From Azolla caroliniana (taxonomy: Eukaryota > Plantae > Polypodiophyta), in contig JBHGNT010000002.1 of NCBI GenBank assembly GCA_043228905.1, positions 27,466,001 to 27,530,000 of the forward strand: DNA of 64,000 bases, given 5' to 3'. A program made the translations under genes and the position numbers. Below, one piece after another: positions 5,110 to 34,701 of this stretch (the stretch's first letter is position 1; every line of letters begins with the position of its first letter). The notes beneath the pieces were generated by a model. The model saw only the letters and a program-made list of their open reading frames with translations. It did not search any database and had not been told where the DNA came from.

Positions 5110-6200
5110 TGATTGAATCATGGGAATGGATGTGGGTCTTCCTTGGGCTGATTTAGTTAAGCAATAGCGGCCCACAGTGGTTAAGTGGTGGGAACACAAA
5201 CAAGAAATTAGTAACATAATGGAAAGTGGCAATAAAAATGGAAGAAAATGATTACACTCATAAAAAATTCTATGTGGATGTATCCTTGGGAAGCTCATGT
5301 GGCAGAAAGTGGCTCTGAGGGATGTAAATGATCGGGGCACTTCAATGCTAGAGGGGTTATTCAATACATTAAACAAGTTAATGCAGATGTTGAGAGCTCT
5401 ACCACAATGGTAGAATTTCAGGAATGGATGCCAATTAGAGTGCTTACTAGATCCAAAAATCAAAGTAGATCTAGACAAATGCAAAAATGATGTAGTTTTT
5501 AAAATCTAGATCTTGGAGGATACATGCCTGAAGACCTTGAAGACCTTGGATACAATGGTAGAATTTCAGGAATGGATGCCAATTAGAGTGCTTACTAGAT
5601 CCAAAAAACAATGGGAAGTAGATCTAGAGAGATGCAAAAATGATGTAGTTTTTAAAATCTAGATCTTGGAGGATGCATGCATGAAGACCTTGACATGGGT
5701 TCCAACAAAACTAGGATGGAAAACTCTGAAAGGTAATATTCAGTTTTTCCGTTATTCGTTTAAGCTTGGTTGTAGTATCCTACAATGTAAGAACTTGGAG
5801 CAAGAGGGCCTTTCTAGCAAGTGGATCAGGGAACACTTGGATTATGATTTCCTAAAACAATACTAGAAACAATTATGGGCCACTAAGATTGCCGGAAAGA
5901 TAAAAACTTTCTTATGGCTATGTAGCCACATATCTCTTCCGATAGGCACTTGGCTGCAGAAAAGGGGAATTGATGGTAACTACAGGTTGTGCTCTTCGGG
6001 ACTCAAACCTCTAGAGCATTGCTTATGGGAATTCTCTCATGCAAAGGAAGTTTGATCGAAAGTGATGAGTTATCTCCTTTCCTTTTGTACTGAACACAAC
6101 TATATAACCTATGCAACTTTTACTTAGTGCTAGAGCAATCGAGCGACGGTTCTCTTTGATATTATGTTGATGTGTTTCTTATCCTTGAAGAGAGAAGCAT
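5110..6200 (+). mobile_element. Decayed L1-type LINE fragment (zf-RVT region)
   Basis: 5870-6060 translates as QLWATKIAGKIKTFLWLCSHISLPIGTWLQKRGIDGNYRLCSSGLKPLEHCLWEFSHAKEV, the plant L1 zf-RVT pattern W...KIK.FLW...LP....L.KRG....C...E...H. Stops are present and the boundaries are approximate. Confidence 0.7.
5405..5692. repeat. ~148-bp tandem duplication inside the L1 relic
   Basis: caatggtagaatttcaggaatggatgcc...gaagaccttg starts at 5405 and 5553. Confidence 0.9.
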
Positions 6201-7569
6201 TTCAACTCCAATGAAGAGTGTATAGCTTATTGTTAGAGCAAATCAACCATGGTTCGATAGGTCATTAATTCAATCATAGTTGCGACCAAAAGTAAGAAGT
6301 GGTGATGGAAATAGTTGCAATTTTTCTTTGTATGTAAATGTCATGGTTGTCACTCTTCCTGATGTTGATGGAACATTTAATTTGAGAAGTAGATGCATTT
6401 GAATTCAAGGGTCTACAACCCAGTGGTCAAGCTATCAACTACATTCTAATAGGTCAATCCTAGTTATGCCCTGGAGGAAGAAATGGTGCAACCATTTTAA
6501 CCCATGCATCTCTTTTCATAAAATGTTGATGGTGTTTATAAATAAATGATGTGTTTCTTGTCCTTCTCTTTCAACATGATATTAATGTTATGAAGCATCA
6601 ATATGTTTACTTTGAATGTACAAGGAAATTAATTGGAGTGGTAGAGCAATCACTTGCAATTTGATATGTCATTAGTTCAATACTCGTTCTCCCCTGAACT
6701 AAGATGTGGTGAATAGGGTTTTCTTTCCATTTGAGCTTGAATGAAGCTTTCAGTAACTTAATGGCAAAGCACTTGATCATTGGTTCAATGTGATTATTCA
6801 TAAATAACATATATTTCTCAAATAGGGGTTTCTTTCATATGAGCTTGAATGAAGCTTTCAATACCTTAATGGTAGACCACTCAATCATTAATTCAATGTG
6901 ATTATATATAAATACCATATTTTTGTTGGTTTTATTTGAATATGATGCCAATAGAAGTATTTGAATTTAATTCAAGGGTGTATACCTTAGTGATAGAGCA
7001 ATCATTTGCAACTCAATATTTCATTAGTTGAATTTTGGTTACATCCTAATGTAAAGTTGTGGTGAATAGTGCGGCATATTTCATGTATACATGAATGATA
7101 TGCATGACAACACTGTAGGTCAATCACTTCAATCTTGGGTACGCCCTGTGTGGTGAATAGGGTTTCTGTATTTGCTTTTGTGGCTCTTATTCGTTTGAAC
7201 TCAAATGAATGGTGTATAACTCCATCCAATAGGTCAGTCACGTCAATCTTGGTTGTGCCCTAAAGTAAGATGTGATTAATAGGGGTTTCCATATTTGCTT
7301 GTGTGATCCTTATTCATTTGATCTCAATTGAAGTGTGTATAGCTCAATGGTAACGCCATCAACCACAATTTGGTAGGTACTCATCATTTTCAATCATGGT
7401 GAATATGCATGATTAGTCAGTTTGTGGTGAATATGCTTGAAATTCGGTTTAAAAATACACAATCAACTACAATTTGGTTGGTGCTCATAATTTTCAATCA
7501 TTGTTATTCCCTAACGCAAGAATTGGTCGTGAATATGGTTGAATTTTTTGTTTATATATATTTATATAT

Positions 7570-7641
7570 GGGTGTATAGCCTAGTTGTAGAGCAATTGGC
7601 TACGGTTTGGTAGGTCATCAGTTCAATCCTGGTTGCGCCCT
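7570..7641 (+). pseudogene. tRNA-Cys-derived pseudogene, best-preserved acceptor and T arms
   Basis: 72 nt: acceptor GGGTGTA/TGCGCCC, T arm ATCAG-TTCAATC-CTGGT, discriminator T. D arm and anticodon loop are mutated (CTACGGT). Confidence 0.7.
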
Positions 7642-8207
7642 AGAAGTGGGAAATTGCGGTGAATAATGTGGATTTTTTTGTTTATATATGAATGATATGT
7701 TTCTCATCCCAACACCACATCTTCATGGAAAAGCAATCAGAAGTCGCGAATTTCATTTGGATTCAAATTAATGGTGTATAGCTCAATGGAAGAGTGATTT
7801 GCTACAATCTAGTAGGTATTCTTGAGCCTCAATCATATGGTTATTCCCTAAAGTAAGAAGTGGTGGTGAATAAGGTTCAATTTTGGTTTTATATCGATTG
7901 TGTGCTTCTCTGAAATTCGAACTCAAATTAATGGTGTATAGCTCAATGGAAGAGTGATTTGCTACAACCTAGTAGGTATTCTTGAGCCTCAATCATATGG
8001 TTATTCCCTAAAGTAAGAAGTGGTGGTGAATAAGGTTCAATTTTGGTTTTATATCAATTGTGTGCTTCTCGTGGTTCGCTTTCCATGTGATGTTGATGGT
8101 GTTTATATATAAATGATGTGGCACATATGTTTCTCTTTCCATATGATGTGAATGGTGTTTATATGTAAATGATGTGGTTATCATGCTTAGTTTAGTGTTT
8201 AGTCAAA

Positions 8208-8279
8208 GGGTGCATAGCTCAGTGGTGGAGCAATCGGTTGCAATCTAATTGGTCATCCGATCAATGGTAGTTACTCCCT
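8208..8279 (+). pseudogene. tRNA-Cys(GCA)-derived pseudogene, best-preserved D arm and anticodon
   Basis: 72 nt: GGGTGCA TA GCTC AGTGGTG GAGC A ATCGG TTGCAAT CTAAT TGGTC..., anticodon GCA. T arm is damaged. Confidence 0.7.
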
Positions 8280-8761
8280 AAAGTAGGAATTCATGGTGAA
8301 TAGTGTGGAAATAATCGTTTATATATGAATGATATGTTTCTCATGGCAATGTCATTGCTCAATAGTAAAACAATCACTTGTAGTGTAATAGGTCAATCAC
8401 TTCCATCTTTGTTGTGCCCTAAAGTAAGATGGGTTTTCGTATTCACTTTTGTGGTTATTATTCGTTTGAACTCAATGGACGGGTGTATAGCTCAACAGAA
8501 GAGCGATCAACTACAATATAGTAGGTATTATTGAGCCTCAATCACAGTTATTCCCTAAAGTAAGAAGTGGTAATGAATAAGATTGCAATTTTGGTTTATC
8601 AATTATGTATTTCAAACCGTTTGTTTTTTTCCAAACAAAATATACTCCCATTAGTTTTAAAAAGGCATATCAGCTACAAAATACACAATTGATGGAAAGG
8701 ACGCGATAAATTACAATTATTCACAAGCTTGTCTTATGTAGGAAAATGGCTAGCCATGGGT

Positions 8762-8852
8762 CCTTCATTTGATAGAATTGATTGAGCATTTCCTCAAATT
8801 TCCCATTCTCGACATATCCTGCAATCAGTGCATTCCAAGAGACCTGTTCTTG
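8762..8852 (-). pseudogene. Isolated fragment of a PLS-class pentatricopeptide-repeat (PPR) gene
   Basis: Translates as QEQVSWNALIAGYVENGKFEEMLNQFYQMK, a canonical plant PPR motif (VSWNALIAGY...G..EEAL..F..M). Flanks are non-PPR. Confidence 0.75.
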
Positions 8853-8948
8853 GAGAATTTCAAACCATTTAAAAAAATCGAAACTTAAACCGAACCAAAC
8901 CAAACCAAAACAAACATGAAACCGTTACAAAAAATTCAAGTTCAAATT

Positions 8949-9335
8949 TGTTGAGAGTCAAGCTCAACATCGGCTGGATTGGCTGAAGAAGCCGAGGATC
9001 GGATCGGTTGGGACTGATCAGTTAGGCCGAGTGCGTAAACCGGGAGGCCGTTAGGAAAGATATTCCGTGAGGAATACATTTGGGAGTTAGTGTAGGAGCT
9101 CTTAATGAGCATTGAAGTACTGTCAGTACTTCGGTCAGTCCTTCTAGGACTTGTATAAAAGTGTTCACTGAAGCACGTCTTATGTACAGATCGAGTATTA
9201 TTGTTGAAAATAGTTTTTCTTGTCTTTCTCTCTGTCTCTGCTGCGTATACTGTGTAAGCTCAAGCTCTCCATTAAACCTGAGTGTTCTTCCTTCTATTCT
9301 GTCTTTATACTTGCTTCCGCACGCTACTTTCTACA
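8949..9335 (+). repeat. 5' LTR of copia element
   Basis: Starts TGTTGAGAG, ends TTTCTACA; direct repeat of 14245-14631; contains TATAAAA at ~9154. Confidence 0.97.
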
Positions 9336-9347
9336 TGATATCAGAGC
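9336..9347 (+). promoter_or_regulatory. Primer-binding site (initiator tRNA-Met type, one G>A change)
   Basis: TGATATCAGAGC immediately after the 5' LTR, versus canonical TGGTATCAGAGC. Confidence 0.9.
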
Positions 9348-9407
9348 GTGAGGGTTGAGAACCTCTCCGCAGCCGACACAGCTTGGCGAAGAAGAACAAG
9401 AAGAACG

Positions 9408-12400
9408 ATGGATAGAGGCATGGCGAGCTCGCTTCCAACAGAGAAGCTCGACAGAACCAACTACGCATCTTGGTCCTACAAGATGCACCAGTACCTGCTC
9501 GGGCACGGCTACTGGAGTTATGTCGAAGGAGCTAATGACGCGGCACCTGAATCGACACACAGAGACTTCCCGTCATGGGAGCAATCGGCGAGCAGGGTAT
9601 TATACTACTTCGCGTCGTGTGTGGGCGAACAACTATTGAGCTATGTTCGGGATGCAAAGACATCGAAGGGTGCGTGGGAAAATCTGAAGAAGATTTTCGC
9701 CGCGAGCACCACAGCCAGGAAGCTCCAGCTCCGACAGGAGTTGAGCAACCTACGACAACGCGACTTGTCGGTGGCGGACTATACCTCGAAGATCAAGGAT
9801 ATATGCGACTCCCTCGCCTCCATAGAGGTAAACATCGAGGAGAGCGAGATGGTCCAAATTTGTCTCAGAGGTTTGGCGTCGAAGTTCGAAGCGTTCCGAA
9901 CGGTTGTGTGTACCCGGGAGAATACGCCGTTCTTTTTCGACTTACAGTCAATGCTCATGGTATAGGAGAACCACGCGGGTGCGTCAACGAGCACGCACAC
10001 CGACAACAAGACATTGTACACGGAGGGAGAAAGGCCCCGTGGTCGTGGCGGACGAGGCAAGTCGGTACGCAATGGAGGCGGCCGACGAGATCAAGGAAGA
10101 AGGCACCGAAGTGATGCCGACAACAACTCTGGACCCTCCGGAAACAGGGGGAGTCGAAGCGATGAGAACCGGCAAGGGAAGGCCATCGCGGAGTGCTGGT
10201 ACTGTGGCAAGAAAGGCCACAAGGAAAGTGAGTGCTGGAAGAAGCGCACCGATTCGGAGAGAACCAGTTCCAGAAACGGCTCCGGACATACCGACAAGGG
10301 AAATCGGCAGCGATCGCACTACGCCGAAGACTCCGGGAGAGACGGAGAAGGGTCTGCCTTCGTGACGAGACATGAAGCAAACTCAATGAAACAGACCACC
10401 CCGAGATCGGACGAGGTGTGGTACGTAGACTCCGGCGCGTCAAACCACATGACGAGCCATAAGGAGTGGTTCTCGTACCTTGAAAAACCGATACAACCTG
10501 GAGTAGTCGCAACTGGAGATGACACTCTGCATCCAATCGCGAATGTCGGCGAAGTTCCCCTTAGCCATGTCGGGCAGAAAGGGAAACTCATGAACGTACT
10601 GCACTTTCCGACAATCACGAAAAACTTGGTCTCGGTCGGACAGATCGTCGACCAAGGGATGGAGGTTCGGTTTACACACCTCGGGTGCTTCATTGAGGAA
10701 GAAGGCCGTGTGATTGCGCAAGGGCGCAGAGACGGGAGGATGTTCATCCTCGATTCCACTGACGGCGGCACCACAATGTTCGCGAAGGGACAAAAACCCG
10801 AGTCGGACATCGACTTGTGGCACAAGCGGATAGGCCACGTCAACTACCAGCGGCTTCAAGATCTGCAATCGAAACAGGTAGTGTTTGGATTGCCCAAATT
10901 TAGTGGCCGAAAGGCACAAATTTGTGAAGCCTGCTAGCTCGGGAAGCAACATCGGCTTCCCTTCCCCAACGAGCGAAACCGGAGCCGGAACAAGCTCGAC
11001 CTTATACACTCCGATGTATGGGGGCCGACACAAAACGTTAGTCTTGGCGGGAGCCGATATTTCGTCTCCTTCATCGACGACCACACGGGGCACACGTGGA
11101 TCTACCTCATTGAGAGGAAGAGCGAAGTCTTCGACTGTTTTCGGGACCTCAAAAGGGTTCGTGGAAACGGAAACGGGACGAAAGATCAAGTGCCTGCGGT
11201 CGGATGGCGGAAAAGAGTACTTTTCCGGTCAATTCAACGGTTATCTACAACAAATGGGAGTTCGGCGCGAATTCAGTTGTAGATACACGCCGGAGCAAAA
11301 CGGCGTGGTCGAGAGGAAGAATCGGTCAGTTGTGGAAGCGACACGGGCAATGCTGGAGGAGAAGAGCTTGCCCAAGTTCTACTAGGCCGAAGCGGTAAGG
11401 ACCGCGGTATATATCCAGAACCGGATCGGAGACAAAGTGTCGGCGCACGAGCAATATTTCGGAACGAAGCCGAACCTTCGACACTTGAGGGTGTTCGGTA
11501 GCATTGCGTATGTGCATATATCGAAGGAGAAAAGGAGGAAGCTGGACGCAAAGGCCGAGAAATGCATCTTGGTCGGTTACTGGGACGAGCAGAAGGGTTA
11601 TAAGTGCTATAACCCTTGCACCAAACAAGCGCGTGTCAGCCGCGACGTTGTGGTTGACGAGTCCGCGTCTTGGTACCTGCCCCCGACTACGAACCTTGAC
11701 TCCAATCCGAGTTCTGACGATGAGGTCAGTGAGGCCGAGATGCCTCCGGATGAGCCCGAAATCGAGACCCGCGAAGAGAGTCCGATTTCACTCCGATTAA
11801 GTGGACCGATTGGACGACTGAGTCGGTACGACCAGTCCAATGAAGAGCCGGCGAGTAGTGGAGACTCGGTCGTGCATTCCCTGCGTAGGAAGCCGAGGAG
11901 ACGGCTTACGCGCGAAGAGAAAGGAAAGAAGAAGGTGTCGGATTCTGGCACGGAAAGGAACGAGTCAGACCGACGCGAATCCGACTCCGAGGGAACCGGT
12001 GACGGGTCTTTAAAGGTGAAGGCTGCGTCGACCGAGAAGGCCTTGACATCGGCTAATGCGAGATTACGCCGATCTACCCGCCAGAAGAATCTTGTTTTGC
12101 GGTTCGGATACAACGAGTACATGGCGCATCATTATGCGTACATGACCCGTGTAGCGGAAGTGCGTGAGCCGGAGAGCTACGCAGAAGCGGCTAAAAACGC
12201 GAATTGGCGTGCTGCGATGGAGGAAGAGATGCACGCATTGGCGGAGAACGAGACCTGGGACCTGGTTGACGCACCAAGAGGGGTAAAACCGATCGGGTGT
12301 AGGTGGGTGTACAAAGTCAAGTACAACACCGATGGCTCGGTCAACCGGTACAAGGCTCGGCTAGTGGCAAAGGGCTACGCGCAGAAACACGGCATCGACT

Positions 12401-14250
12401 ACGATGAGACGTTTGCGCCAGTCGCGAAAATGACGACCGTCCGTGTTTTGCTCGCAGTAGCTGCGGCCAAGGGGTGGCACCTACATCAAATGGATGTAAA
12501 GAATGCGTTCCTGCAAGGTGACCTTGAGGAACAAGTGTACATGGTACATCCCCCCGGATTTCACTCCGGAATGAACTCCTCGACAGTATGCCGACTGAAG
12601 AAGTCCCTTTACGGACTGAAGCAAGCCCCGCGTGCCTGGAACACGAAGATCATGTGACAACTGCGTCGAATGGGCTTCGTCACGTCAAAATCGGACTCTT
12701 CCCTGTTCATCCGGAAAGGTCGACTCGGACCGGTTAGTATTCTACTATATGTTGATGACTTGGTCATCATCGACGCTGACCTAGGTGAAATCGATCGCGT
12801 GAAGCTCCAACTTGCTGCATCGTTCGACATGAAGGATCTAGGGGACCTTCATTACTTCCTCGGGATCGAAGTGATCCGTACCCCCGAAGGCATATTGATC
12901 AGCCAACGCCATTACGTGCTGAGTATGCTCTTCAAATTCGGGATGGCCGACTGTAAGTCCGTCTCGACTCCTCTGGACAGAACCGTCAAGCTTCGTCCCG
13001 ATACGGGAAAGGTATGCGACCCGACGAGGTTCCGACAAATTGTCGGAAGCCTCATATACTTGACCATCACTCGACCCGACCTCAGTTATCCGGTTGGAGT
13101 GATCAGTCAGTTCATGGCATGACCTACCGAGGAGCACCTTCAGTGTGCGCAACGCATACTTCGATATATCAACGGCACTAAGGATCGGGGACTGCTATAT
13201 CGGACCAGTGCAACCGCGCAGTTAGTCGGCTACACCGATGCTGATTGGGCTGGCAATGCCGCCGATCGCCGATCCACGTCCGGATACGCATTCTCCCTCG
13301 GGAGTGCCGCGATCGCGTGGAGCAGTAAGAAGCAACCGATAGTTGCACTGTCGAGCACCGAAGCTGAGTACCGAGGAGCGGTTGTCGCGACATGCGAAGC
13401 CATATGGTTGAAGCGGCTACTTAAGGACCTGCAAGTGGAGGTGTCAGATCTGACGACGATCTACTGCAACAACCTCAGCAGCATCCAGCTCGCGAAGAAC
13501 CCCGTCTTCCACGCACGGACCAAGCACATTGAGGTGCATTACCATTTCGTCCGTGAGCGTGTCCTTTCCGATGAAGTCGAACTTCAGTACGTGCCGACGG
13601 ATCGGCAGACTGCCGACATCTTCACAAAGCCTCTTGGTCTGGACAAGTTGCGGCAATTCTCGGGTGCGCTCGGATTGCGTCACCTCGACGTGCCAAACTT
13701 GAGGGGGAGAACAGTCCCGAATGACCAAGCAAGGCAGCAGGAAAGGAGCAGAGACCGCGACACCGAGTTCGAGTCGGTTGACTCGGTCGTCGATTTCGAC
13801 TTCGGATCGGCTGAAGAAGCCGAGGGCGGACCCACGGAAAAGTCTGAAAACGGACAGAAGGGGAGCAGCCGAAGGAGAGAGCCGAAGCCAACCACGCATG
13901 GGGGAGATGACGCCATCGAGGGCGAGAAGACTGAAGACGAGTTGGAGACAGCCAACTCGGACGAGAGCGAAAACCGATCGGAGGTAGCCGAGTCGGTTCG
14001 GATGTTTGATTTAGACACATTGAATCAACCAAGGCCCAAGCGGAAGAAAAGGCAGCAGAAGAAGTGTCAACACCGCAACAACAAAAGAGCTGATAAGGGC
14101 CGCATGAGCAGACAAGCCGACCAGAAGGGTCGAAGCGCGCGGAGTCGAACAGGTCGAGGAGCGCGAGCGAGGCATGAAGCCAGGAGGAACCAAAGCTGTG
14201 AGTCTGAGGATCCCGAAGAGCCTCGAGTTGAGCTTGAGGGGGAGTGTTGA
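9408..14250 (+). pseudogene. Copia gag-pol polyprotein pseudogene
   Basis: Gag (EKLDRTNYASWSYKM), zinc knuckle CWYCGKKGHKESEC, protease WYVDSGASNHM, integrase HKRIGH..CEAC / LRSDGG / YTPEQNGVVERKN, RT ([14 protein letters not shown]), RNase H (DADW, EAEY, YCNN). Premature stops at 9963, 10935, 11383, 12655 and 13120, plus a +1 frameshift near 11151-11157. Confidence 0.96.
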
Positions 14251-14631
14251 GAGTCAAGCTCAACATCGGCTGGATCGGCTAAAGAAGCCGAGGACCGGAT
14301 CGGTTGGGACCGATCGGTTAGGCCGAGTGCGTAAACCGGGAGGCCGTTAGGAAAGATATTCCGTGAGGAATACATTTGGGAGTTAGTGTAGGAGCTCTTA
14401 ATGAGCATTGAAGTACTGTCAGTACTTCGGTCAGTCCTTCTAGGACTTGTATAAAAGTGTTCACTGAAGCACGTCTTATGTACAGATCGAGTATTATTGT
14501 TGAAAATAGTTTTTCTTGTCTTTCTCTCTGTCTCTGCTGCGTATACTGTGTAAGCTCAAGCTCTCCATTAAACCTGAGTGTTCTTCCTTCTATTCTATCT
14601 TTATACTTGCTTCCGCACGCTACTTTCTACA
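14245..14631 (+). repeat. 3' LTR of copia element
   Basis: Direct repeat of 8949-9335, preceded by the PPT and followed by TSD AAATT. Confidence 0.97.
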
Positions 14632-19363: not shown

Positions 19364-22300
19364 ATGATACCGTCATCTCCATCGCGGTAAGATAGAGAAT
19401 ATGGTATTAACATGACAGAGATGAAATGTGAGAGTAAGATAGAGATGAAACAAAATGTAATATTTATTTGTGAGCAAAAGATTAAATGAAATGTGGTATT
19501 TAACCCGAGAGAGAAAGACAGAGCGACAATTCAATATGTCTATTAGAAGCAGAAATCGGTCCAGATGTTTGTTTGTAACAAGTGTGACAGGCCTGTGGTT
19601 CAGATGAATATGGCCTATGTTCACGGAAAATTTCAAATGTCATTGTCGTGACCCTACTTGTATAGCCCTTGATTGACTTCAGCAGGAGACGGAGGGGATG
19701 TTGCCAAATATAAGGCTAGTCATTGTTTTTGGCTGAAGAGGTTTTGTTGTTGTACTGTTGTCGTTCAATGATGTCTCTATATATCTCATGATATCTAGCA
19801 AGAACAATGCAAAGCATCATCCTTATTTCATAAAAAAATCATAATGGCAAGCAGTGTTCTTCTGGTTCTACTCCCTGATGGCAAAAGTGGCAGATCCATT
19901 CTTCCATAGATTTGCATGCCTATTTTTCTCTAGCTGATGTGGAGAGCATTTGATCTACCCTATCACAATATGAGGAGGATGTGCATTGGTATTTGTCCGA
20001 TGAGATGTGTATTAAACAAGGGCTTTATGGTGGCCATATCTACGAAGAGACTTTCTGGGGTGATCCACATTCATGCATATCCAATTAAATGGCATCAATT
20101 CGGATCTGCCATTAGTTTTCACTTTGGTCATTTCCAAGTGGGGACAATCCAAGCTATAGATTAGATGTAGCACATTTATATTGGTGCCATGTGATTGGAA
20201 CCATTCTTGCATTTCAGCATAGCAACAACGATTATCTCTATGTTTTGCTGAATGTTTTGACAACATAAATCCCAATCTTGAGTACTTTTTATTTGGAAGC
20301 TCTTTGTTGGATCCTGATCACTGGTTTGAGTAGTGCCTCAATCACTATTGGGGCTGCTCCTATTTCTGCCCAGATTACATAATGAAGACACAAATACTTT
20401 GCTCCTTACAATACAGGCAATCATTGAGACTAAATGTCTTTCTTATTCTCTCCAGTTTTGTACTCTATGAAGACTTGATCCACATGTTGCAAGTGTATTG
20501 ACCATAAGTTTGTTTGTGGTTTTTTTAATTGTATCCGTGACACTGTCTCCTGATATTTGCATATGCACAACATCCCTTTGAGAGTCAGAAATAAACACGA
20601 AATCATCAGCATATAGTTATATCAGTGTTGCTACCTCAGCCAAGCATGCGTCTGATTTTATTAATGATCTGTATGTTTGATGCTGATTTTCATAAATTCT
20701 CCCAGTCTTCTATAATCTTAAAGCAATGAACTGCATAACATTTCTACATTAATATGCAAAAGAAAGGTAGGATAACTCATCAAAGTTGTTGTAGCTTGCA
20801 CATCCATCAGCACACAAGCTAGTCAAGAACTTTTGAAAAATGACTCATCAATACTTCAGGATTTCTTTCATGAACATCATATCGTTGGATGATTCTATGA
20901 CTGGGGATGGTGAATTTTAGTTATGTCATTTGTAGCATGGCTTGTTTTGCAGGACTGCAGAAGTGGAGATGCTCCAGCGTTATCGCCGAGATAGGCATGA
21001 ACTTCTAAACTTCCTTCTTTCAGCCAGTGTTTTGAGGAAGGTGGTGATGCCACCAGGTGCTGTGTCACTTGAAGATGTGGATTTAGATCAAGTGAGTGTG
21101 GACTACGTCCTGGAGTGTGCACGGAAAAGTAAGTATTTTAAAAGGATTAAGAATGCCTGAATGTAGATACTTCTTTAAGCAACTATCGGACTTAGAATTT
21201 GCTGGTATTATTCTTATTAGTATCTTATGAATGTTTGTGTTCAGATGGAGTATTGGAGCTAGCAGAGGCAATAAAGAAATATTATGATGATTTGAACTTG
21301 CCTCCTATGGTAAGTTATGATATTTCGAAATTTTACCTAATCATCTGATCATTAAGATATCTTTTGCATGAGCTGCAATGTTCTACTCCATTTATGCCCA
21401 GGGCTATATTACACATGACTCATCCATGTCCTGCGCCTTTTAGAGGTACTGGCTTAAATGAATTTAGAGAAAGCTGAGTTACGTGATAGATTCACACAGA
21501 GCTTTGGACAAGATCACTAGGACCTCAGATGTCTCTGCATTAACAAACAAAAATGTGCATAATGCATAAAACTTGAACTTAATAAGGATGCTGAATGGTG
21601 TGACGAGGTGCATAGAAAATGAAGAATGCCTAGAATTTAAGACTTGTATGATATGGTGGCTTATTATGGATGGATGAATTAGATATCTGAATGACTCTTG
21701 ATTATCTTATAAAGGTACATAGTTTGTATGATATGGTGGCTTATAGTGGATGGATGAATTGGATATCTGTATGACTCTTGATTATCTTATAAACGTACGC
21801 AAAATAGTAAAAACATTCTGATTTTGAGACAACAAATTCCAGAAATAAAATTAGTCTTTGACAAATGAGATGAAAATAAAGCTAAAGCAAAGAAGAAGAG
21901 AAATGAGGGAAATGTAATCCGTTGTTGAAAAAACTAAGATCAGCATATGGGCAATGGTTAATGTGATGCACTGGAAAATTTGAGATTAAGAAACGTATTG
22001 GAAACAAGTAAAAACATTTCGTAGGATATCTTGATGTCGATCTCACGACCTTATGACTCATTCCGCTAGCAAGTAAAAACATTTCGTAGGATATCTTGAT
22101 GTCATAAATCTCGTTCCTAGAGAGCTCTCATTCTGCTAGCATAGTTTTCTGGATTCCAAACTAGTATTTTCTGGTTGTATCAAGTGGCCACTTTTACAAG
22201 ATGGTGTGCATATCTATTGCACTAATATTAACCTCAGGATTTTAATGAATAAATTATTTGTAGATACTAGTATAAACAAAAGCCTGGATGAAAGCTATTT

Positions 22301-25300
22301 CCGAGTTAATGATTATCGTTTCTTCAACAGGTAGGGGCAGGATTATCACAAACATTTTTTCTTGTAACAAATTTTGATTCTTCTGGTCCCCCTCCTTCTC
22401 GGACTGCACCTCCTTTGCCAATGGCTAGCTCTCCTGGTGGACTTCAGAAATCTTTCTCAACTCCATCAAGACGTGCGTCAGTTGATGAGCGTATAGATGA
22501 GGAAGATGATGAAGACGAAGTAGCATCCATTAATATAGTGCGCCGCCAGCTGAATGATGCGAGTGACTTGGTGTTAGATCTTCCTGCATTCAGAACAGGT
22601 GATTACTTTCTTGGAACACTTGACTGTTGCAAATGCCTCTTGCTCTTAATGGGTAGAAATATATGGAAATTCTTTAGGCGTGTGTGAGCATCTGGAAAGT
22701 ATGTGGGAAGAGAAATGTACGGAGAATTAGTATGAGTGCATGAATGATTCAAATTTAATGAAACTTACATCATTATTGTTTGTATTCATTAGCACTTTAT
22801 AAGGTCAAATCTTCTAGAACATTGTGAAGCATCTACTCAGCATACAATAAAGTGAGACTATCATTTGATTGTTTTCACTATTCTGGAAAATAGCTATGTA
22901 CATGCCTACTGGCAAAAATAGTATAGAGAATGTGGCTCTTAGTGGAAACTACTAAGTGCATCCATTATGTGTATATATGCTGTGTCCACCTGGCTCCATT
23001 CCCACATGTCTGAAGTTTTAATGAGTTGAAGACCTGGACTAAGCTTAGATTCTGAATTTCTCTCTTGGTTTGAAATGCTTAATACAGGGATATCAGAAGA
23101 TGACCTTCGTGAGACTGCATATGAAATTTTGCTCACCTCTGTTGGTGCAGCTGGGTAAGTATATATTTTTCTTGGGTTTACTTGGAAACTGCTATAAAGC
23201 TCAAGATACTCCTAGATTATTGAAGTAACAATTTGTGTTATACAGTGGTCTCCTGTTACCCCCTGTTAAGGACAAGAAAGAAGAGAAGAAATCAAAAATT
23301 GTGAGAAGGCTGACAGGACGCAAGACTGAAAAGTTCAAGCCCCAACCTAGTCGAGAATCAGGTCTTGCTGGTCTGCTTGAAAACATTCGTACACAAATGG
23401 AGGTAGACTATCAAATTTGAAGGAGAACCATAATACTTAGTTTAATAGTTTTAGAAAGCTAAACAGTACTTCATCTAATCATGCATATTATTCTTGGTCC
23501 TATTTCATTTTGTTAGGTTGTCACATAATTATGCACTTTGTTTCCTAAAATCTGCAAGGTTTTACCAAAATGACTACTACTTGGTTGCTGTCATTTTGTA
23601 AGGATCTTATTGAAGACCTCTCAATATAGATCTATGTGGTTGCCTAACACCGTCAAGTTTTATGTGTATATGAAATGATCATAAATATCATGGCAGTTTG
23701 TAATGTTATTTGAGAATTACTTTTGCTACTTTTGTGAGTGTTTTCTAAGGGAACTGTGGGGGTGATGACATTTTTGAATTGTATTCTAGTGCTGTTTCAT
23801 TGTATCTAGTAATCTTGTTTTTCTTGGTGAAGGTTCAAAGTTCTGGTTGTTTGGATGATCTAATGCAGCTATTCATGCGTTTCTAGATTTCTGAAGATAG
23901 GGACCGGCTGACAAGAAGTGGTCTTCTGAATGCATCTGCTGGAAGAGTTGGGAAGCGAATGGATACACTATTAGTACCTCTAGAATTGCTTTGCACAGTT
24001 TCTCAGTTAGATTTCCCTGATCGTAAATCATATTTAAGATGGGAAAAGAGGCAGGTTGGTATATGAGCCTCAGAAATTGCTTTTATGTGTTTTGTATTTT
24101 GACTCAATGATTAGCCTTTATATGGGTCTGTGAAATGAGAATTATTTTCTTATTAGCTGTATGACTCATCAGTTGGTTCTTTTGAACAGGTGAATCTGCT
24201 TGTAGAGGGTCTCCTCAATTATCCATCCATACACTTAGAAGAGACAGATCATAAAGCGCTGGAACTAAGGAGACTGATTGCGAAACTTGAGGAAGCAGAG
24301 GTAGAGGATCCATCTGATTGTCAATACCAACTTTCGTTTGTGTAATAATAGCCTAACAGCTTTCTAAAAGGAGATAACAGATTCTGTATCAATTTGAAGG
24401 GTCTTCCTTCTCCAGCAGGCCCAGCTCAGCATGCAGAGGCTTTAAAGGCTATGAGAGGGGTAGCACTTGGTCTTGCCGAAAGGGCTTCGAGAGGAGACCA
24501 AACTGGAGAGGTCTGCCATTGGGCAGATGGTTACCATTTGAATGTACGTGTCTATGAGAGATTGCTTTGCAGTGTCTTTGATATATTGGATGAGGGAAAG
24601 CTTGTTGAGGTAACCACACTCTAATATATGTAGAAAGGAGAAATTTCTGAATCATGTGTCTTACATTTGAACTTAGTATGATATATATTAAACTTTAGGA
24701 AGTTGATGAGATAATGGAGCTATTGAAATCCACTTGGCGAATGTTAGGGATCACTCAGACAATTCATGATCTATGCTATACTTGGGTATTGTTTCGTCAG
24801 GTATGTACTCGTAAGTGGTTAACTCTATTTTTGTTTGATGATTGTAATACTACCCTTGTATCATGAACTCAAAATACATTGCTATAATGTCTCTGGTATC
24901 TCTGCTCCTGTTTCAATCTAGTATTAATTTGGCTTGAACTTGTGGAGCTTGCATTTTTTTTGTTTGCAAACTCTAGTACAAATAAGGTAGACAGATGTTT
25001 TTCTAATGATCCTCCCCTAGATAGCATTTGTACTAAGAAAAGTTTGACAATGAACCTTTGGAGAATATGAAGGCATTGGCTTTTTACACATCCTGGAGGC
25101 TCATGAGAGAACAGCTATACTTATGTTGGAAAATTTGTGGGGTCTACATGTATGGTAGAATAATACAGGAAACGCTTCATTTGTTGATGCTTGATAGGCA
25201 GTGTCATCAAGCATGTTTTAGGAACTCCAGGACCTGAAGGAAAGGGCTGGGTTTTCACATAATATATTTCTCTCAATTTTGGGTTCTAACGCATTTGCCA

Positions 25301-28300
25301 TTCACATCATGGCACTGTATTCCATTATGTTACAAAAGTGATTACTCTTTATTTAAAATGATAAAAATTGACTCTACGAATCACACGAGAACACATGGGG
25401 ATTTAAGAGGTCCCACCAGCTTCGAACATCACAGAGAGACTCAAGTTATATGTTGTGCCAAAACATACAGTTCAGCTCCATTCTTCATTGCCCAAAATAA
25501 ATTGATGATGTTTATTATCATTAGAATCAGGTGTGTATATTAGTGAAATAGTAATCAAGCAGTAATTCTGAGCACCTTGTGCACAATGATCTGCTTTTCT
25601 TCATGCAGATGTGATGTCACATCCCAAGCTCTATAATTTTAGTGCCTCAATTTCATTTTCAAGATCCATATCTGGGTTGTTCATAAACTCATATGAAATC
25701 CCAATGTAAATCATCCTTAGCATTATATCTTCATCTATAAAATCTTTCTTTCATGCAACACAATTGTGTCGGCAAGATGCACAAGTACATACATATATGG
25801 GGTAGTCAAACATGCACTGGAGGTATGAACTTGCTGCAGAAAGTAGACCCTAATGCATTAAACAATGGCTGACCTTGTACTGTGCAGGCTGCATGTCATA
25901 ACAGAAACCAAGGAAAATTGTGCTTAAAATATTCCTGCACACCCTCTAGAGGAGTTCCAGTACTTTGTATTACCATTTTCATTGAAGATAATGGTATGCA
26001 GTATGGTCTACAATTTCTACTTTGTTTCAAGTTTTTATATGATCTCTACAAAAAATTATCTTGAATCTTTCATGCCCTTTAATGATGACATGCATTCCGG
26101 TGTTGATGGTAAACTCAGACTATAATACCTCATGTTATCTGCAATCAAAATTAAAAAAACAGAAGGCCTTTTCCTGAAATGATAATTTCTTCCAAATTCA
26201 GTCAGTTGTTAAATTCATTCCGAAACCATGGCATGCAGACCCTGTGTTCACTTCAGTCATTGTATTTATTTGTTGTGCCTTGATTGGGAGTCATTTTAAC
26301 AATAGATTCCTTCATTTGAAGTTTGTGCTGACAGGTGAAGAGGAACTTTTGCAACATGCATCATTACAGATGAAGAGAATAGCTGCTGATGGGCAGCGAA
26401 GTCCGCAAGAAAGATTTTACATGAAAAGCTTGCGGTCTTATAGAGAGGGCAAGGATGGTCCTCAAGAGTTAACCTTAGTGGAGTCGGTTCTTTACCCTAT
26501 TAAACAGTGGGTCGATAAACATATGGAAGACTATCATTTACATTTTGTGGATGTAAATTTTCTACCTTTGTTTCAACATGGTTATTCAAGAATTATTTTG
26601 TTGCAAAAGAATCTTAATTATAAATTCCGAAATGCAGCATTTGCTTAATCTTGTTGAGTTATGAATATATTTGTATGTCATCAGGCTTCAAAAATGGAAG
26701 CTCTTATTACTTTGGCAATGGTGGCTGGTAGACTCTTGGCTGATGAGAAAGAGCAGACCGGTGTAAGTTGATGAGCCCTAAACTCTAAGCTCTAATATTC
26801 TTCCCTCTCTCTGATTATATAATGGAGTTCCCATATATAGATCACAAGAATGACATCAGGAGCTGAGATGGCTGCAGTGGCGAAACAAGCTGAAGATTAT
26901 ATAATGTCCTCAGCTAAATCTGCTTTTGAAAGAGTGTGTACAATTTCTTCTCTCTTTTGTGTCATAACTTGATCTAAATTCCTCAAAAGGAGTTGTTATT
27001 TTGGGGCCAGGCACTGAAGGAAGCTGATGTCAAGTGTGAAGCTGAACATGAACATCGCTTGGCATTACTAGCAGAGTTAGTTCTAGGACTTGCTAAAAAG
27101 GATGCTTTGGTGTTTGCTCCTGTTTTGTCTCGATGGCACACTCATGCAATTCCTTTCTCGGCCTCTATCTTTCATAATCTCTACCAAAAGGAGCTGGTGA
27201 ATGCATAGAATTTCCTTGCTTATTATATTTTCATATTTTCCATGATCATAAAGAATCACTCCGGTCTATGTGTCTATGTGCTAGCTAGAAACCCTTTCTT
27301 GATGGAGTTTCCGTTCTTACGGATGATGTAGCATCAGTTCTTCCAGCAGCCGATAGACTTGAACAGTATATTATAGGACAAATCATGTCTGCAAATTCTG
27401 AGAATGAAGCCAGCTATTACAAGGAACAGATGAAGCCCTTTCAGGTATGGCACCACTAAGCAATAAATGTGAGGTATCAAATTATTTTTAACAGTCTAGT
27501 CATTATGTGGTGGAAAATTTTTCTATCCAAGAATAGAATTTTCCATTATAAAATGTTCAAGCATTGAGATAATCTATCGGTTCTGAATTGGTGGTCAGGC
27601 AGGGAATCATATAAGTCGCAGAGATTCTGATAATATCCTGATATAGGGACTTGTCCAAGTCACTTCCTCCATATTAGAATATCAGCATGGTGTTTGAATG
27701 GGAGGAAGAAAGTGTTTAGAACTCTTATCTGCCAATCCACACATGATGATACCAAACATACATGGAAAAATCAGGATGCAGACACAAAGTGTGGCCCAAT
27801 AGAGAACAATACGTTCAATTATAAATTGATATACAATTTGCAACATATGAGTTTCAAATTCATGATCCCCTAGATGAGAACCAAGGATAGAGGAGTAAAC
27901 TAATTCAAATTAAAGATAATGGAATCGACAGAAATTGGAAACTTAAACTTTGTAAACTGAAAGGGGATTAACCTTGCAACATTTTAAGCTACTGGATAAA
28001 TAGTGAAGTGAGCATGGGAGTCGGGGAAAAATGAAATGAATTGACATGATTTATAAACACTTCAAAAGGCCAAAGTGATCTATGAAAGCAGAAGCTACAT
28101 CCATGTGAAACTTATAGAATGTCTAATAATTAAAGCAAAATTAAATTGTACCTACATATGGGAGGCAGGGAAAAGAAAGAAAGAAATTTTAATAATTGGT
28201 CCAGGTTGAGGACATTTCAGATACATTGATTATGCGGTGGGTGAATGTGCAACTCAACAGGGTATCAGAGTGGGTTGACAGGACACTTCACCAGGAGGTT

Positions 28301-31300
28301 GTATATGATTCTCCTACCACTATACTCTTGTTTCAGTTGTTTAATACCTTACCTCTTTCAAGTATGTATGCTGTGTATATTCAAATAATCGATATAGATG
28401 TGCTAATTTTTGAACCAGATGAGAGTTAGATTTCTATCAACCTCATTTTTATTTATTGATTCTATATTAAATTTAAGGGCCAATCCTTCCATTTCAGAAA
28501 TGGGAACCATTATCAAACAACCAGCGACATTGTGGATCTATTGTTGAGGTTTTCCGTATCATGGAGGAGGTAATTTGATTGTTCTCAAACTGTTTGTATG
28601 GGTTATCTATAATTATTCTGAGTTTGTTCTTATTTCATTTTTTGCGTCATAAACATTTTTTATTGGCTAAGATATATCACTATATATGAAGGACAATGCC
28701 GATTATAGTAAAACGTGAATAAAATAAATGTTTCCCTTAGGCCCATAGAATAATAGCATGTGATTGACCAAAATGCTATTCAAAAACTTTTCCGTAGGTC
28801 CATAGTATAATCACATCTAATTGACCAAAGTGCTAAGCAAATATTTGCCCATATGCCCATAAAATAATAACATCTAATTGACCAAAATACAAAGCAAATA
28901 TTTGACCAATTCAGTAACGTACCTCCAAATGGTGTGGATGTCTTCATGGATAATTCATAGTTTTAAGTATTTGGTCGTTTAGTTTATGAAACACAACCAA
29001 GTATTTGATCGAAACTGTAGCATAATAATGTTAATGATAAAGATGTACTCAAATCAATTTCAAGATGTGGGGTTTTAACTTGGAGAACTTCCATATTTGG
29101 TTGTTGATTATTACTGATATGCAAATAGGAAGTTTTCTGATGTTCGATTTCTGTTATCACATAATAATGGCAAACTGAATGGTTGAACAAAACCAATGCT
29201 GAAGCCTAACAATAGTTCTGCCTATGTTTTTGTAGTTTGACCCAACTATACTATGAGTATGAGTTAAAGGCATCAAATTCTGTGGTTTAACTATTTGCAT
29301 GTAAACTTCTCACAGTCATTGTGATAGCCATGTCCTCTACGTAGAGAATGGTTCTATTTATATTCTTCTTTCTTGAGATACTTCATATGTTGGGTGTTGA
29401 AGGACCAATCATATTTCAAAATAATATCTCACCACAGTCCAATCACCACTACTCTCACACATATTAGCTATGCACTTCCTGAATGTAAACCATCTTGAAA
29501 ATCATCCCACCTCATGCATTCAGATAATGATATTAGAGTTTTAAGAAACCTAGAACTTTTAATTTTGTGGTAGTATGGACGACATGAACTCAACCTAATT
29601 TTAAGCATGATTTATTTCATAGGCCAAATTTGGCCTTTGGTCTCTATGTCAATGAGGTACCACATTATATAGAGAGATTCTGGGGTTCAGAAGCATGCCT
29701 AGGGGGTATAGCCATACAAATATTACCAGATGCTGATGATATAGATGAGGAGCAACAAAGACATCTTCATGCCTTAAAAGTATTTTGTATGGAGAAAAGT
29801 TTGTCGATAAACATGGATAAAACTAAAGTGATGTTGTCAATCAACGCCATGCAAATGGGTTTCCCAATAGGACATTACAAAGGGGTTACAATAGATCGGG
29901 CAATAGCAATTTGCCGTGCACGTAGGTCTTGGCCTCATGGACCACGATGTCACCATCCTTGTGATTGATAGATAAAGGCGATTATCACTAGCCATTGCAG
30001 GGGCTTTCCTTGCTTCGGAGACCTCTCCATTCTGGATCAACCTCTGTTAGAGATCTATTGAAGAAAAAAATTACAATATATCTGACTTGAGAATCTTGCA
30101 TGTACTGATACAAGATTCTTCAGTCAGTTTTTATTTTATTTACTTATTTTTGACTTGGTGTACTGATACAAGATTCTTCAGTCTGTCTTTATTTTATTTA
30201 CTTATTTTCTACTTAGTAACATATATTTTGGTTTTTTGTTCTCAAAGACGAGACAACACTTATGCTATAATCTCTTGTTTGGTCTTATATGCCATTTTGG
30301 CCTCTCACCTACACCTTTCATGAACTACTCATATATTTCAAGTGCTCTTTAGCTGTGAATCAGGAGATGGTGTTTTGATGTAGTGGTCAAATGGTAACTT
30401 TTATTGCAGACAATAGAGCAATTTTTCAACTTGAAATTGCCAATGCGGTTTCGATTGGTCAAAAGCTTGATGAGTGGTTTGGACAGTGCATTGCAGAATT
30501 ACTCCAAGAAGATTGTCAGTCAGCTTGGTAAGTGTATAATGTCCTATTTTTGGTGTTTTTCTTACTTATCAAGCAAAGCATGCATGTACATTGCCTGTTT
30601 TTCTGTTTCAGGATCCAAAGAGAACTTCTTGCCTCCACGACCTAGTCTAACTCGCTATGGCAAAGAGACAACGTCAATCAAGACATTTACTAAGAAAAAG
30701 CTAGCAGAATCGAGGACTCCGGATGAGAGGAGTAGTTACTTGAAGTTGCTAACAGTTTCACAACTTTGTGTTCGCTTAAACACCTTACACGTGAGACCTG
30801 CAGACATATTATTGTAGATAAAATCATAGAAAGATATTATAACATTTCTATCTTTTGCAGTATATATTGAATCAAGTGAATGTTCTGGAAGACACTGTGA
30901 AGCAGTCCTGGGCAGTGAGAAGACCCCCGGACAACCTTGGTAATGACTATTTGAACCACTATGATTTTTTGACTTCATAGACCCTGTTTGACTTTTTTTA
31001 TACATTTTGTGTGGGCAACCTTTTTGGCACAGCAAGAGGGTCACCAGCTGATAGAACTGCCGGTGGAACCTTTACTGCTTTTGACATAACACGGAAGTTA
31101 ATAAATGGTGCTGTTGATCAAATTTGCGAGTTCTTAGGTATTTATCATTGTAACTATTCTTATCTAAGAACATATCAACATGATTGAGGTATCTGTATAA
31201 GCTTTATGTGTAAATGTTCGAAAGGTTTCGAAAATGGTTTAACTGCCAGTGTGGATCATTATGAAAAACTAACATTTTCCAAAAGAACTAGCTACATTGT

Positions 31301-34078: not shown

Positions 34079-34701
34079 GCCACTGTCAATCTGATACTTG
34101 TATTGTTTTTTCTCTTTTAACTCATTCTTTGGTTTGTTGGATCAATCACATGTTCTCTTGTTTTTTTGTAAAATTTGCCAAGAATTATTTCCAAGTGTAT
34201 TTAAGATGGTTTGTAAATTGTAGCAAGCAAAGCAGTACATGTACATTTTGGATGTTTAATATTAATCTTGTGCGATTTTGGTCTCACAATGATTGAGAGT
34301 TGTTCAATCGATTGTTCAAAGGACACACCTAGGCACACAGCCTTGGTGGATAAAGTAGTATTTTTTTTGCTTTATTTTGATCTTCCATTTTTGGTGTCTT
34401 GTCTCTATTTATGATGTATATAAAATGTACCTACAGAAACAAATTGGCAGATTGAAACCAAGTGTCGAATTCATTGAATAACATGTGTATCTTCTTGAAC
34501 CATTGTCTCTATCTCACTATAAATAAGTTGTAATTAGTACTGCACCTCTAATTATGCATATTAATAACTTTCATATCATTTGAGCTATGAAACAACATAA
34601 TGCTGTAGATGTGAAGGAAATTTAATACAAATCATTTGTGAATAGTTATCCTTTGTTCCTGATTATTAATGTAATCTTCTTTGGATTCAGATTATAGGGC
34701 A

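What the first reader, a model, noticed from the sequence alone, without database searches (positions are those of the whole stretch)
6216..8580. Cryptic head-to-tail array of ~16 tRNA-Cys(GCA)-like units with a conserved trailer
Seen: same-strand repeats spaced ~110-280 bp apart. My reconstructed ancestor GGGCGCA TA GCTC AGTGGTA GAGC A ATCGG CTGCA(A/G)T CCGAT AGGTC ACCAG TTCAATC CTGGT TGCGCCC T folds into a complete 72-nt cloverleaf. Many units are preceded by TCAA and followed by AAAGTAAGAAGTG(TG)GTGAATA and then a T-rich run. Established: a GCA anticodon plus U73 are tRNA-Cys identity elements; plant tRNA genes have upstream CAA motifs and oligo-T terminators; methylated tandem tRNA clusters exist in Arabidopsis. 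Inference: a fossil tandem tRNA-Cys cluster or a tandemly amplified tRNA-derived SINE/satellite. If transcribed, RNase P/Z could cut it into tRNA-like and spacer RNAs, and the array could act as a TFIIIC-bound boundary. No single copy looks fully functional.
Basis: partly seen in the sequence, partly recalled or inferred. Interest (0 to 1): 0.8.

Follow-up and report, generated by a model that had tools for sequence, protein, structure and literature searches.

The report
Fossil cluster of cysteine tRNA genes
This is a 2.4-kb run of about 16 broken copies of a cysteine tRNA gene in what is likely a fern, which likely arose by repeated local duplication and then likely decayed under DNA methylation, an ordinary fate for such gene clusters.

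Summary
The array is real. Fourteen of 16 same-strand units at 6216-8595 are statistically firm, and two are weak remnants. An intact parent-type tRNA-Cys(GCA) gene was found in a public contig (L039, Rfam 61.7 bits).

The units share the untranscribed upstream flank, a ~31-nt trailer, a T-run and multi-unit blocks. They show no target-site duplications. This points to tandem DNA duplication, not a SINE.

Decay follows methyl-C deamination: transition rates are CG 0.47, CHG 0.37, CHH 0.13 and A/T 0.06. Base pairs are broken as often as chance predicts (65 vs 67.8 +/- 4.6). No unit keeps both promoter boxes.

A neighbouring protein places the host among ferns. Younger arrays of the same tRNA type exist in other contigs, one sharing the trailer.

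Verdict: a pseudogenised tRNA-Cys homocluster, the end stage of a kind known from Arabidopsis. The proposed RNA-processing and boundary roles have no support here. The scan had no sequence look-alike on record; it noted a decaying tRNA-Leu array in another genome. One lead: the young sister arrays mostly lack nearby Pol III terminators.

The parts
6216..8595 (+). Whole decayed tRNA-Cys homocluster: 16 units plus spacers and the last trailer
6119..6142 (+). Possible extra remnant of a D-arm (not significant)
   Evidence: HMM E 0.3; local score 42, equal to the 95th percentile of shuffles
6216..6288 (+). U1, full length, 76% identical to the parent, anticodon destroyed, T5 at +33
   Evidence: E 5.5e-9
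6409..6472 (+). U2, 8-nt deletion in the variable loop/T stem, anticodon ACA
   Evidence: E 0.005
6624..6695 (+). U3, keeps GCA and the B box; 5' acceptor and A box destroyed
6743..6800 (+). U4, weak remnant lacking the anticodon arm; first copy of a 108-bp duplication
   Evidence: E 0.85
6851..6908 (+). U5, weak remnant, duplicate of U4 (84%)
   Evidence: E 0.11
6976..7047 (+). U6, full length, keeps GCA, B box broken; starts higher-order block 6976-7569
   Evidence: E 4.7e-9
7108..7147 (+). U7, 3' half only
   Evidence: held out, E 7.6e-6
7209..7261 (+). U8, internal deletion of D loop to anticodon stem
   Evidence: held out, E 1e-12
7333..7404 (+). U9, insertion subfamily, 3' end lost
   Evidence: E 0.003
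7459..7512 (+). U10, 5' end lost
   Evidence: held out, E 1.5e-16
7570..7641 (+). U11, best copy: 88% identical to the parent, 20 of 21 pairs, B box intact, a D-loop G of the A box lost, anticodon changed to ACG, T7 at +32; starts block 7570-8207
7772..7849 (+). U12, insertion subfamily; first copy of the youngest (160-bp) duplication
7932..8009 (+). U13, duplicate of U12 (5 transitions in 156 bp)
8208..8279 (+). U14, full length, 81% identical, keeps GCA and the A box; B box and T stem broken; starts block 8208-8620
   Evidence: (E 2.3e-11)
8347..8420 (+). U15, anticodon GTA, heavily decayed
   Evidence: E 0.045
8481..8556 (+). U16, insertion subfamily, followed by the trailer and T-run to about 8595
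   Evidence: E 3e-5
5780..6100 (+). Left neighbour (not part of the array): broken LINE-like zinc-binding reading frame, multi-copy
   Evidence: translation with stops (the LINE label is my recognition, this stretch was not scanned against Pfam); depth 330-490 vs 18
8949..14631 (+). Right neighbour (not part of the array): young Ty1/copia LTR retrotransposon with 387-bp LTRs and a 5-bp TSD

Best explanation
The array is a set of about 16 broken copies of a nuclear tRNA-Cys(GCA) gene that likely arose by repeated tandem DNA duplication, was likely silenced by CG and CHG methylation, and likely does nothing today. Shown: every firm unit derives from the whole 72-nt gene with its own upstream flank, ~31-nt trailer and T-run; multi-unit blocks are repeated; changes are concentrated at CG and CHG sites; the cloverleaf is not protected; no copy keeps both promoter boxes. 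Inferred: (1) a complete Pol III transcription unit was copied head to tail by unequal recombination or slippage, first singly and then as a roughly three-unit block; (2) the repeat, lying between a LINE remnant, a high-copy repeat and a copia element, was methylated and shut off, as for Arabidopsis clustered tRNA genes; (3) intact copies elsewhere in the genome made it dispensable, so 5-methyl-C deamination and small deletions erased anticodons, boxes and stems.
For: Parent. The intact gene in L039 817-888(-) is called tRNA-Cys(GCA) by ARAGORN and scores 61.7 bits on RF00005; units are 63-88% identical to it. The polarised consensus of 14 units is called tRNA-Cys(GCA), with 3 differences from the parent. 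In the window's own organism, other contigs laid on U14 show five listed changes (8243, 8246, 8247, 8250, 8258), all toward the parent's letters. A 47-nt node over U11 has depth 280 against 15-18 for single-copy contigs, roughly 15 intact-type copies elsewhere (rough; the tool warns that depth is not copy number).

DNA-level duplication. The 25-nt upstream flanks of 12 units are more alike than shuffles (16.3 vs 12.0 +/- 0.4; maximum 13.6 of 1000), and so are the trailers (23.2 vs 13.1 +/- 0.4). Block matches: 7228-7379/8387-8527 (E 4e-25) and 7570-7707/8208-8344 (E 3e-20). Subfamilies have bootstrap 86, 95 and 100.

Methylation signature (14 units; U5 and U13 dropped as recent duplicates). 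Transitions: 36 of 77 at CG, 55 of 148 at CHG, 30 of 226 at CHH, 25 of 414 at A/T. Fisher P is 6e-9 and 1e-7 against CHH (the units share ancestry, so P is overstated). The pattern holds in two 6-unit subsets and with a second parent. It fits Ceratopteris methylomes, where CHG is enriched in repeats and CHH is near background (PMC9477723, passages).

No selection. 65 pairs are broken vs 67.8 +/- 4.6 in context-matched re-dealing (P 0.31). Stems change more than loops (161 of 530 vs 68 of 371). GCA survives in 3 of 12 complete anticodons. Both boxes are intact in 0 of 16 units.

Younger stages exist. L027 (4 units, trailers scoring 9.7-12.8 bits on the window's trailer matrix vs at most 5.8 for 80 other gene flanks), L007 (12 local-alignment hits), L026 (9) and L095 (5).
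Against: Methylation and silencing are read from the mutation spectrum only; no bisulfite, small-RNA or ChIP data were available. U11 keeps 20 of 21 pairs, a B box and a T7 terminator, so it could still bind TFIIIC. Of 31 pairs changed on both sides, 18 still pair; double deamination of C-G to T-A would give this, but I did not test it separately. The genome is not held, so dispersed copies of unit plus trailer elsewhere are not excluded. In organism A, 9-10 contigs carry a related trailer after the tRNA 3' end, and their arrangement is unknown. L039 comes from a metagenome contig of unknown species; it is a stand-in for the parent.
Confidence: 0.85

Rival explanations
1. The unit is a short tRNA-derived SINE (tRNA head, ~30-nt body, T-rich tail) that spread by retrotransposition and was later amplified in tandem here.
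For: The unit has a tRNA head, a non-tRNA trailer and a T-run. A related trailer follows tRNA-Cys 3' ends in 9-15 other contigs of organisms A and B. A LINE remnant lies next to the array.
Against: The upstream flanks, which Pol III does not transcribe, are shared. No TSD-like repeat of 8 nt or more flanks 12 of 16 units; by my reading the other 4 matches are overlapping or shared spacer sequence. The head is the complete tRNA, and no CCA follows the discriminator. Trailers are no more like the two LINE remnants than like 60 control stretches (25.1 and 23.9 vs 24.4 +/- 1.1). There are no dispersed copies in the 64 kb. The related trailer in L027 is itself in a tandem array.
Confidence: 0.06
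2. The array still works: U11 (and perhaps U3) recruits TFIIIC/Pol III and either gives tRNA-like small RNAs or marks a chromatin boundary between transposon DNA and genes.
For: U11 passes the Rfam gathering score and keeps a B box, 20 of 21 pairs and a terminator. Organism B holds U11 with 2 differences in 118 nt on a 2,929-nt contig.
Against: There is no selection on pairs or stems, and 14 of 16 B boxes are broken. U11 has lost GCA. The array lies among transposon remnants, not at a gene edge. Two differences in 118 nt is in line with organism B sharing 0.47 of the 31-mers over the whole array, so U11 is not specially conserved as far as tested.
Confidence: 0.06
3. The units are internal or terminal parts of a transposon, such as a Helenus-type TRIM with a tRNA in its LTR or a Helitron, amplified in tandem.
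For: Helenus TRIMs with tRNA-like LTR sequence exist in a lycophyte (PMC10886601, passages). The Arabidopsis Cys cluster overlaps Helitron annotations (PMC10701932, part 1). The trailer begins with a purine-rich stretch followed by TG.
Against: There is no PBS-like site on the + strand and no repeated polypurine tract (2 runs of 10 or more purines on the + strand in 2.55 kb). There is no room for an LTR end, PBS and internal part between the tRNA and the purine stretch. No hairpin plus CTRR end was found on the + strand within 450 nt to the right (crude scan). The unit keeps the whole tRNA body, not just the boxes.
Confidence: 0.03

Closest known systems
Arabidopsis thaliana chromosome 5 tRNA-Cys(GCA) cluster (PMC10701932: part 1 of 5 and passages read; PMC7544208: passages read)
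   Same: Head-to-tail copies of one tRNA-Cys gene with flanks; copy number changes by whole-unit gain or loss; pseudogene members; transposon-rich setting; CG/CHG methylation (measured there, inferred here).
   Different: There, 4-6 units of ~420 bp at 84-94% identity mostly pass as high-confidence genes. Here, ~16 units of 100-280 bp are all broken, show higher-order blocks, and come from a different tRNA-Cys isodecoder in a likely fern, so the origin is independent (inference).
Plant tRNA homoclusters in general (Pro, Ile, Ala, Gln; PMC13437025: section 10 and passages; PMC13578239: passages)
   Same: A compact single-isotype array with flanks more uniform than those of dispersed genes.
   Different: Those surveys count recognisable genes (5 or more in 5 kb) and would score this locus as at most one gene. 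No fern Cys cluster is named in the passages seen.
tRNA-like sequences and pseudogenes of fern genomes (PlantRNA 2.0, 10.1101/2021.12.21.473619, passages)
   Same: More than 10,000 tRNA-like or pseudogene sequences are reported for Azolla filiculoides; this locus is the sort of sequence such counts may include.
   Different: That paper ascribes them to whole-genome duplication and transposon load. Here the source is local tandem duplication. The host species is not established.
tRNA-derived tandem satellite DNA of plants (Benslimane et al. 1986; only the title was seen, in the reference list of PMC4411372; text not held)
   Same: A tandem repeat whose monomer descends from a tRNA gene.
   Different: Satellites are long, homogenised, high-copy arrays (recalled). 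This array is 2.4 kb, heterogeneous and bounded.

Membership tests
tRNA (Rfam RF00005) | Score at or above the gathering threshold (29 bits), extant units | tested here: not met
   1 of 16 units passes (U11, 34.7); U14 scores 22.5 and U6 20.8
tRNA (Rfam RF00005) | The ancestor or parent fits the model | tested here: met
   L039 gene 61.7 bits; polarised consensus called a tRNA by ARAGORN; the consensus itself was not run through Infernal
   GCA is kept in 3 of 12 complete anticodons (U3, U6, U14), which keep only 12, 17 and 15 of 21 pairs; the best-folded copy, U11, reads ACG. Met for the parent.
Functional tRNA-Cys gene | Intact internal A and B boxes | tested here: not met
   A box 4 of 16, B box 2 of 16, both 0 of 16, by a consensus pattern that I wrote from recall
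Functional tRNA-Cys gene | Transcribed, processed and charged | not testable with these tools
   Only contigs were available
Plant tRNA homocluster (pseudogenised) | Five or more same-isotype tRNA-derived copies within 5 kb | tested here: met
   14 firm copies in 2.4 kb, same strand, one parent. Met as pseudogenes; the published criterion counts annotated genes
Plant tRNA homocluster (pseudogenised) | Shared upstream and downstream flanks from tandem duplication | tested here: met
   Leader and trailer similarity exceed all 1000 shuffles
Plant tRNA homocluster (pseudogenised) | CG/CHG methylation and silencing | tested here: inconclusive
   The mutation spectrum fits past methylation; there is no direct methylome
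tRNA-derived SINE | tRNA-related head with A/B boxes | tested here: met
   In the ancestor
tRNA-derived SINE | Target-site duplications and unrelated 5' flanks | tested here: not met
   5' flanks are shared and no TSD is seen; old TSDs may have decayed
tRNA-derived SINE | LINE-related 3' end or A-rich tail | tested here: not met
   No A-rich tail after units; no excess likeness to the two LINE remnants in the window; other LINE families not tested
tRNA-derived SINE | Dispersed genome-wide | tested here: inconclusive
   Absent from the rest of the 64 kb; genome not held
Helenus-type TRIM | Two LTRs with a PBS and PPT between them, and a 5-bp TSD | tested here: not met
   No + strand PBS like the neighbouring copia's and no repeated PPT; only the iMet-type PBS was sought
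Dicistronic tRNA-snoRNA gene | A conserved C/D-box snoRNA directly after the tRNA | tested here: not met
   Only a weak snoZ175 match at 8567-8620 (24.5 bits vs gathering 43, E 2.6)

The most novel reading that the evidence does not exclude
Ferns run a birth-and-death cycle of tRNA-Cys tandem arrays, and this window is its fossil end stage. The young arrays (L007, L026, L027, L095) hold near-intact genes with no nearby oligo-T terminator, so Pol III would read through them as polycistronic pre-tRNAs cut by RNase P and Z. Such arrays, rather than whole-genome duplication, would be a main source of the thousands of tRNA-like sequences counted in fern genomes.
Probability: 0.1. Interest if true: 0.55.

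Novelty: new member of a known kind. Interest (0 to 1): 0.2.

Why it matters
Modest. The locus shows the end state of a methylated tRNA cluster, with the deamination signature readable base by base. With L027, L007, L026 and L095 it forms a series from intact to fossil arrays in what appears to be one lineage. This offers a concrete route, local tandem amplification followed by methylation-driven decay, for the excess of tRNA-like sequences reported in fern genomes. It also warns annotators: ARAGORN calls U11 a tRNA-Arg(ACG), but it is a mutated Cys pseudogene, and 15 of 16 units are invisible to standard tRNA finders.

Tried and rejected
Expression. No RNA holder was listed. The RNA-guess run X13 of organism A laid 0 records on U11. 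The RNA-guess run X10 holds a 186-nt contig identical to 6258-6443 at depth 3.7, but it also holds contigs of the neighbouring repeats and may contain DNA. None of this is evidence either way.

Genome-wide view. No genome is held, so dispersal and synteny could not be tested.

Folding. MFE folding does not give a cloverleaf even for the intact parent (z -1.34), so it cannot judge the units (9 sequences).

Other readings rejected:
- snoRNA trailer: E 2.6, far below the gathering score.
- tRNA-Arg for U11: the body is 88% identical to tRNA-Cys.
- LINE-derived tail: one of four comparisons slightly exceeded 200 shuffles (30.5 vs 30.0), but the effect vanished over 12 trailers against 60 controls.
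- Sigma-70 scan: irrelevant to a plant; fewer sites than in shuffles.
- Protein coding: the longest stop-free stretch in the array is 85 codons.
- My first guess of a bryophyte host: dropped after the tree.

Other gaps. The gapped block identities (65-77%) have no null and are used only together with the BLAST E-values. The protein Atlas gave no answer.

Literature. Eight paper searches listed no paper whose title or abstract start describes a fern tRNA-Cys tandem array. The main supplementary PDF of the fern genome paper PMC6786969 was too large to read and may bear on this. Earlier-findings look-ups by sequence found nothing.
Full report
What is there. The region 6216-8595 holds head-to-tail repeats on the + strand. 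I delimited 16 units, U1-U16, spaced 101-276 bp. Standard tools see one: ARAGORN and Rfam RF00005 call 7570-7641 (U11, 34.7 bits against a gathering score of 29), and two more score below threshold. A covariance model of 14 intact relatives finds 11 of 16 at E<=0.05 and U10 and U8 weakly; the best hit in the rest of the window, on either strand, is E 3.9. A profile HMM that includes the flanks, trained on 10 units, recovers four of the six held-out units strongly (U7, U8, U10, U13) and U4 and U5 only weakly. So 14 units are firm and 2 are probable remnants. Independent DNA contigs of organism A cover three parts of the array with 0-1 differences at single-copy depth, and a 2,929-nt contig of organism B carries U11 with 2 differences. 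The array is not an assembly artefact.

The parent. Laying run contigs showed that other copies in the same organism read differently from U14 at five listed places. It also showed eight contigs of organism B that join an intact GCA anticodon arm to U11's 3' half. ARAGORN, given 60 of the 123 loci, called the match tRNA-Cys(GCA) in most of them. The gene in L039 scores 61.7 bits on RF00005 and is 88% identical to U11 and 63-86% to the others. All five listed changes on U14 go toward its letters. A deamination-polarised consensus of 14 units is called tRNA-Cys(GCA) by ARAGORN and differs from L039 at 3 positions; the plain majority consensus reads ACA. A 47-nt contig node over U11 with 6 differences has depth 280 against 15-18 for single-copy contigs. 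Six is also the number of differences between U11 and L039 in that stretch, so roughly 15 intact-type copies likely lie elsewhere in the genome. The letters were not shown, and depth is a rough guide only.

The host. The window is plant nuclear DNA: it holds a copia element, PATROL1 exons and a zf-RVT LINE remnant. For the protein at 36783-38342, the best 120 of 458 hits were listed. In a tree of 27 of them plus the query, the query lies in a starred 8-row clade (100/100) with Ceratopteris and Adiantum, apart from liverworts and seed plants. No named moss or lycophyte was among the rows. The host is likely a fern; the species is not determined.

How the array arose. The repeated unit is a whole transcription unit. 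TCAA lies within 12 nt upstream in 8 of 14 units (background 6%). The trailer motif occurs 6 times in the array and never elsewhere in the window. A T4+ run follows within 35 nt in 10 of 13 units. Upstream flanks and trailers are each more alike than all 1000 shuffles. Pol III does not copy the upstream flank (established knowledge), so shared leaders point to duplication of DNA, not retroposition. The units fall into subfamilies, U7/U8/U15, U9/U10/U12/U13/U16 and U4/U5 (bootstrap 86, 95 and 100). These recur in order in blocks starting at U6, U11 and U14 (BLAST E 1e-11 to 4e-25). Copies from different blocks differ by 5.6-15% transversions, whereas U12/U13 and the two LTRs of the neighbouring copia element differ by none. 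So the main expansion is old, and one 160-bp duplication is recent. Unequal recombination or slippage is the inferred mechanism.

How it decayed. Against the parent, over 14 units (U5 and U13 dropped as recent duplicates), 124 of 229 substitutions are G>A or C>T. Transition rates are 36 of 77 at CG, 55 of 148 at CHG, 30 of 226 at CHH and 25 of 414 at A/T. The pattern holds with a second parent and in two 6-unit subsets. It matches methylation in the fern Ceratopteris, with CG and CHG present and CHH near background (PMC9477723, passages), and the CG/CHG silencing of Arabidopsis clustered tRNA genes (PMC7544208, passages). Structure is not protected: 65 pairs are broken against 67.8 +/- 4.6 when each unit's changes are re-dealt among sites of the same base and context, and stems change more than loops. 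GCA survives in 3 of 12 complete anticodons. No unit keeps both boxes. Against this reading, U11 still has 20 of 21 pairs, a B box and a terminator, and 18 of 31 double changes still pair; methylation itself was not measured.

Relatives. L027 holds four units running from decayed to apparently intact (the last is cut by the contig end). Its three trailers score 9.7-12.8 bits on the window's trailer matrix, above all 80 distinct flanks of other intact genes (maximum 5.8), so the two arrays likely share an ancestor. L007, L026 and L095 hold arrays of a close isodecoder with a ~360-bp period, each period carrying one near-intact and one decayed copy; their trailers do not score above background. 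L040, L060 and L093 are tandem arrays of a more distant tRNA-Cys. The species behind these contigs are unknown. In L007, L026 and L095, 0 of 5 distinct flanks of intact copies have a T4 within 25 nt, against 80 of 85 for other intact genes. L027 and L095 have no T4 before the next unit, while 4 of 6 L007 copies have one at +33 to +36. The single gene L039 also lacks a strict T4, so the contrast is a lead, not a result.

Rivals. The SINE reading fails on shared 5' flanks, missing TSDs, no LINE-like tail and no dispersed copy in 64 kb; genome-wide dispersal is untested. A Helenus-type TRIM (PMC10886601, passages) fails on PBS and PPT. A tRNA-snoRNA dicistron has only an E 2.6 match. A living role for U11 is not excluded but has no positive evidence.

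Comparison and novelty. The array works like, and is a decayed member of, the plant tRNA homoclusters; the Arabidopsis tRNA-Cys cluster is the nearest described case (PMC10701932; PMC13437025). It is not a set of functional tRNA genes. Fern genomes are known to hold very many tRNA-like sequences (PlantRNA 2.0; PMC13578239). Eight searches listed no paper on a fern tRNA-Cys array, but the fern genome paper's main supplement could not be read. The scan's own notes hold no sequence look-alike and one decaying tRNA-Leu array in another genome.

Verdict. Observation confirmed; origin settled; function most likely none. New member of a known kind, interest 0.2.

Noticed in passing
L007 784-2662, L026 1507-3000, L095 46-705, L027 420-1167: Young tRNA-Cys tandem arrays whose near-intact genes mostly lack an oligo-T terminator nearby (0 of 5 distinct flanks with T4 within 25 nt vs 80 of 85 other genes); possible Pol III read-through.
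   Followed up: partly
L007, L026, L095: The ~360-bp repeat unit is a dimer of one near-intact and one decayed tRNA-Cys copy amplified together.
   Followed up: partly
L040, L060, L093: Independent tandem arrays (156-168-bp period) of a different tRNA-Cys isodecoder with a T4 right after each gene; tRNA-Cys seems to form tandem arrays repeatedly.
   Followed up: no
L001, L009, L022, L028, L032, L046, L050, L052, L056: Very dense mixed islands of 20-37 eukaryote-type tRNA genes on both strands within 2.6-6 kb.
   Followed up: no
window 8949-14631 (+): Young Ty1/copia element: 387-bp LTRs differing by 6 transitions, a 5-bp TSD, an iMet-type PBS with one mismatch, and stops in the polyprotein.
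   Followed up: partly
window 8620-8910; related 42874-42954 (-) and 47942-48028 (+): High-copy unannotated repeat right after the array (summed depth up to ~2900 vs 18).
   Followed up: no
window 7190-7210 and 7312-7332: The leader of several units is a near-palindrome just upstream of the tRNA (pair I3); no role tested.
   Followed up: no
window ~22300-34100 (+): A long PATROL1-like gene; CpG is depleted but CHG is not over 20-32 kb, while CHG is depleted in intergenic DNA, which hints at CG-only gene-body methylation.
   Followed up: no
window 36783-38342 (+): Intronless 519-aa ORF with a conserved N-terminal domain; no Pfam hit at E 0.01; groups with fern proteins.
   Followed up: partly
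window 6258-6443: A run guessed to be RNA (X10, organism C) holds a 186-nt contig identical to this stretch; may be DNA carry-over.
   Followed up: partly
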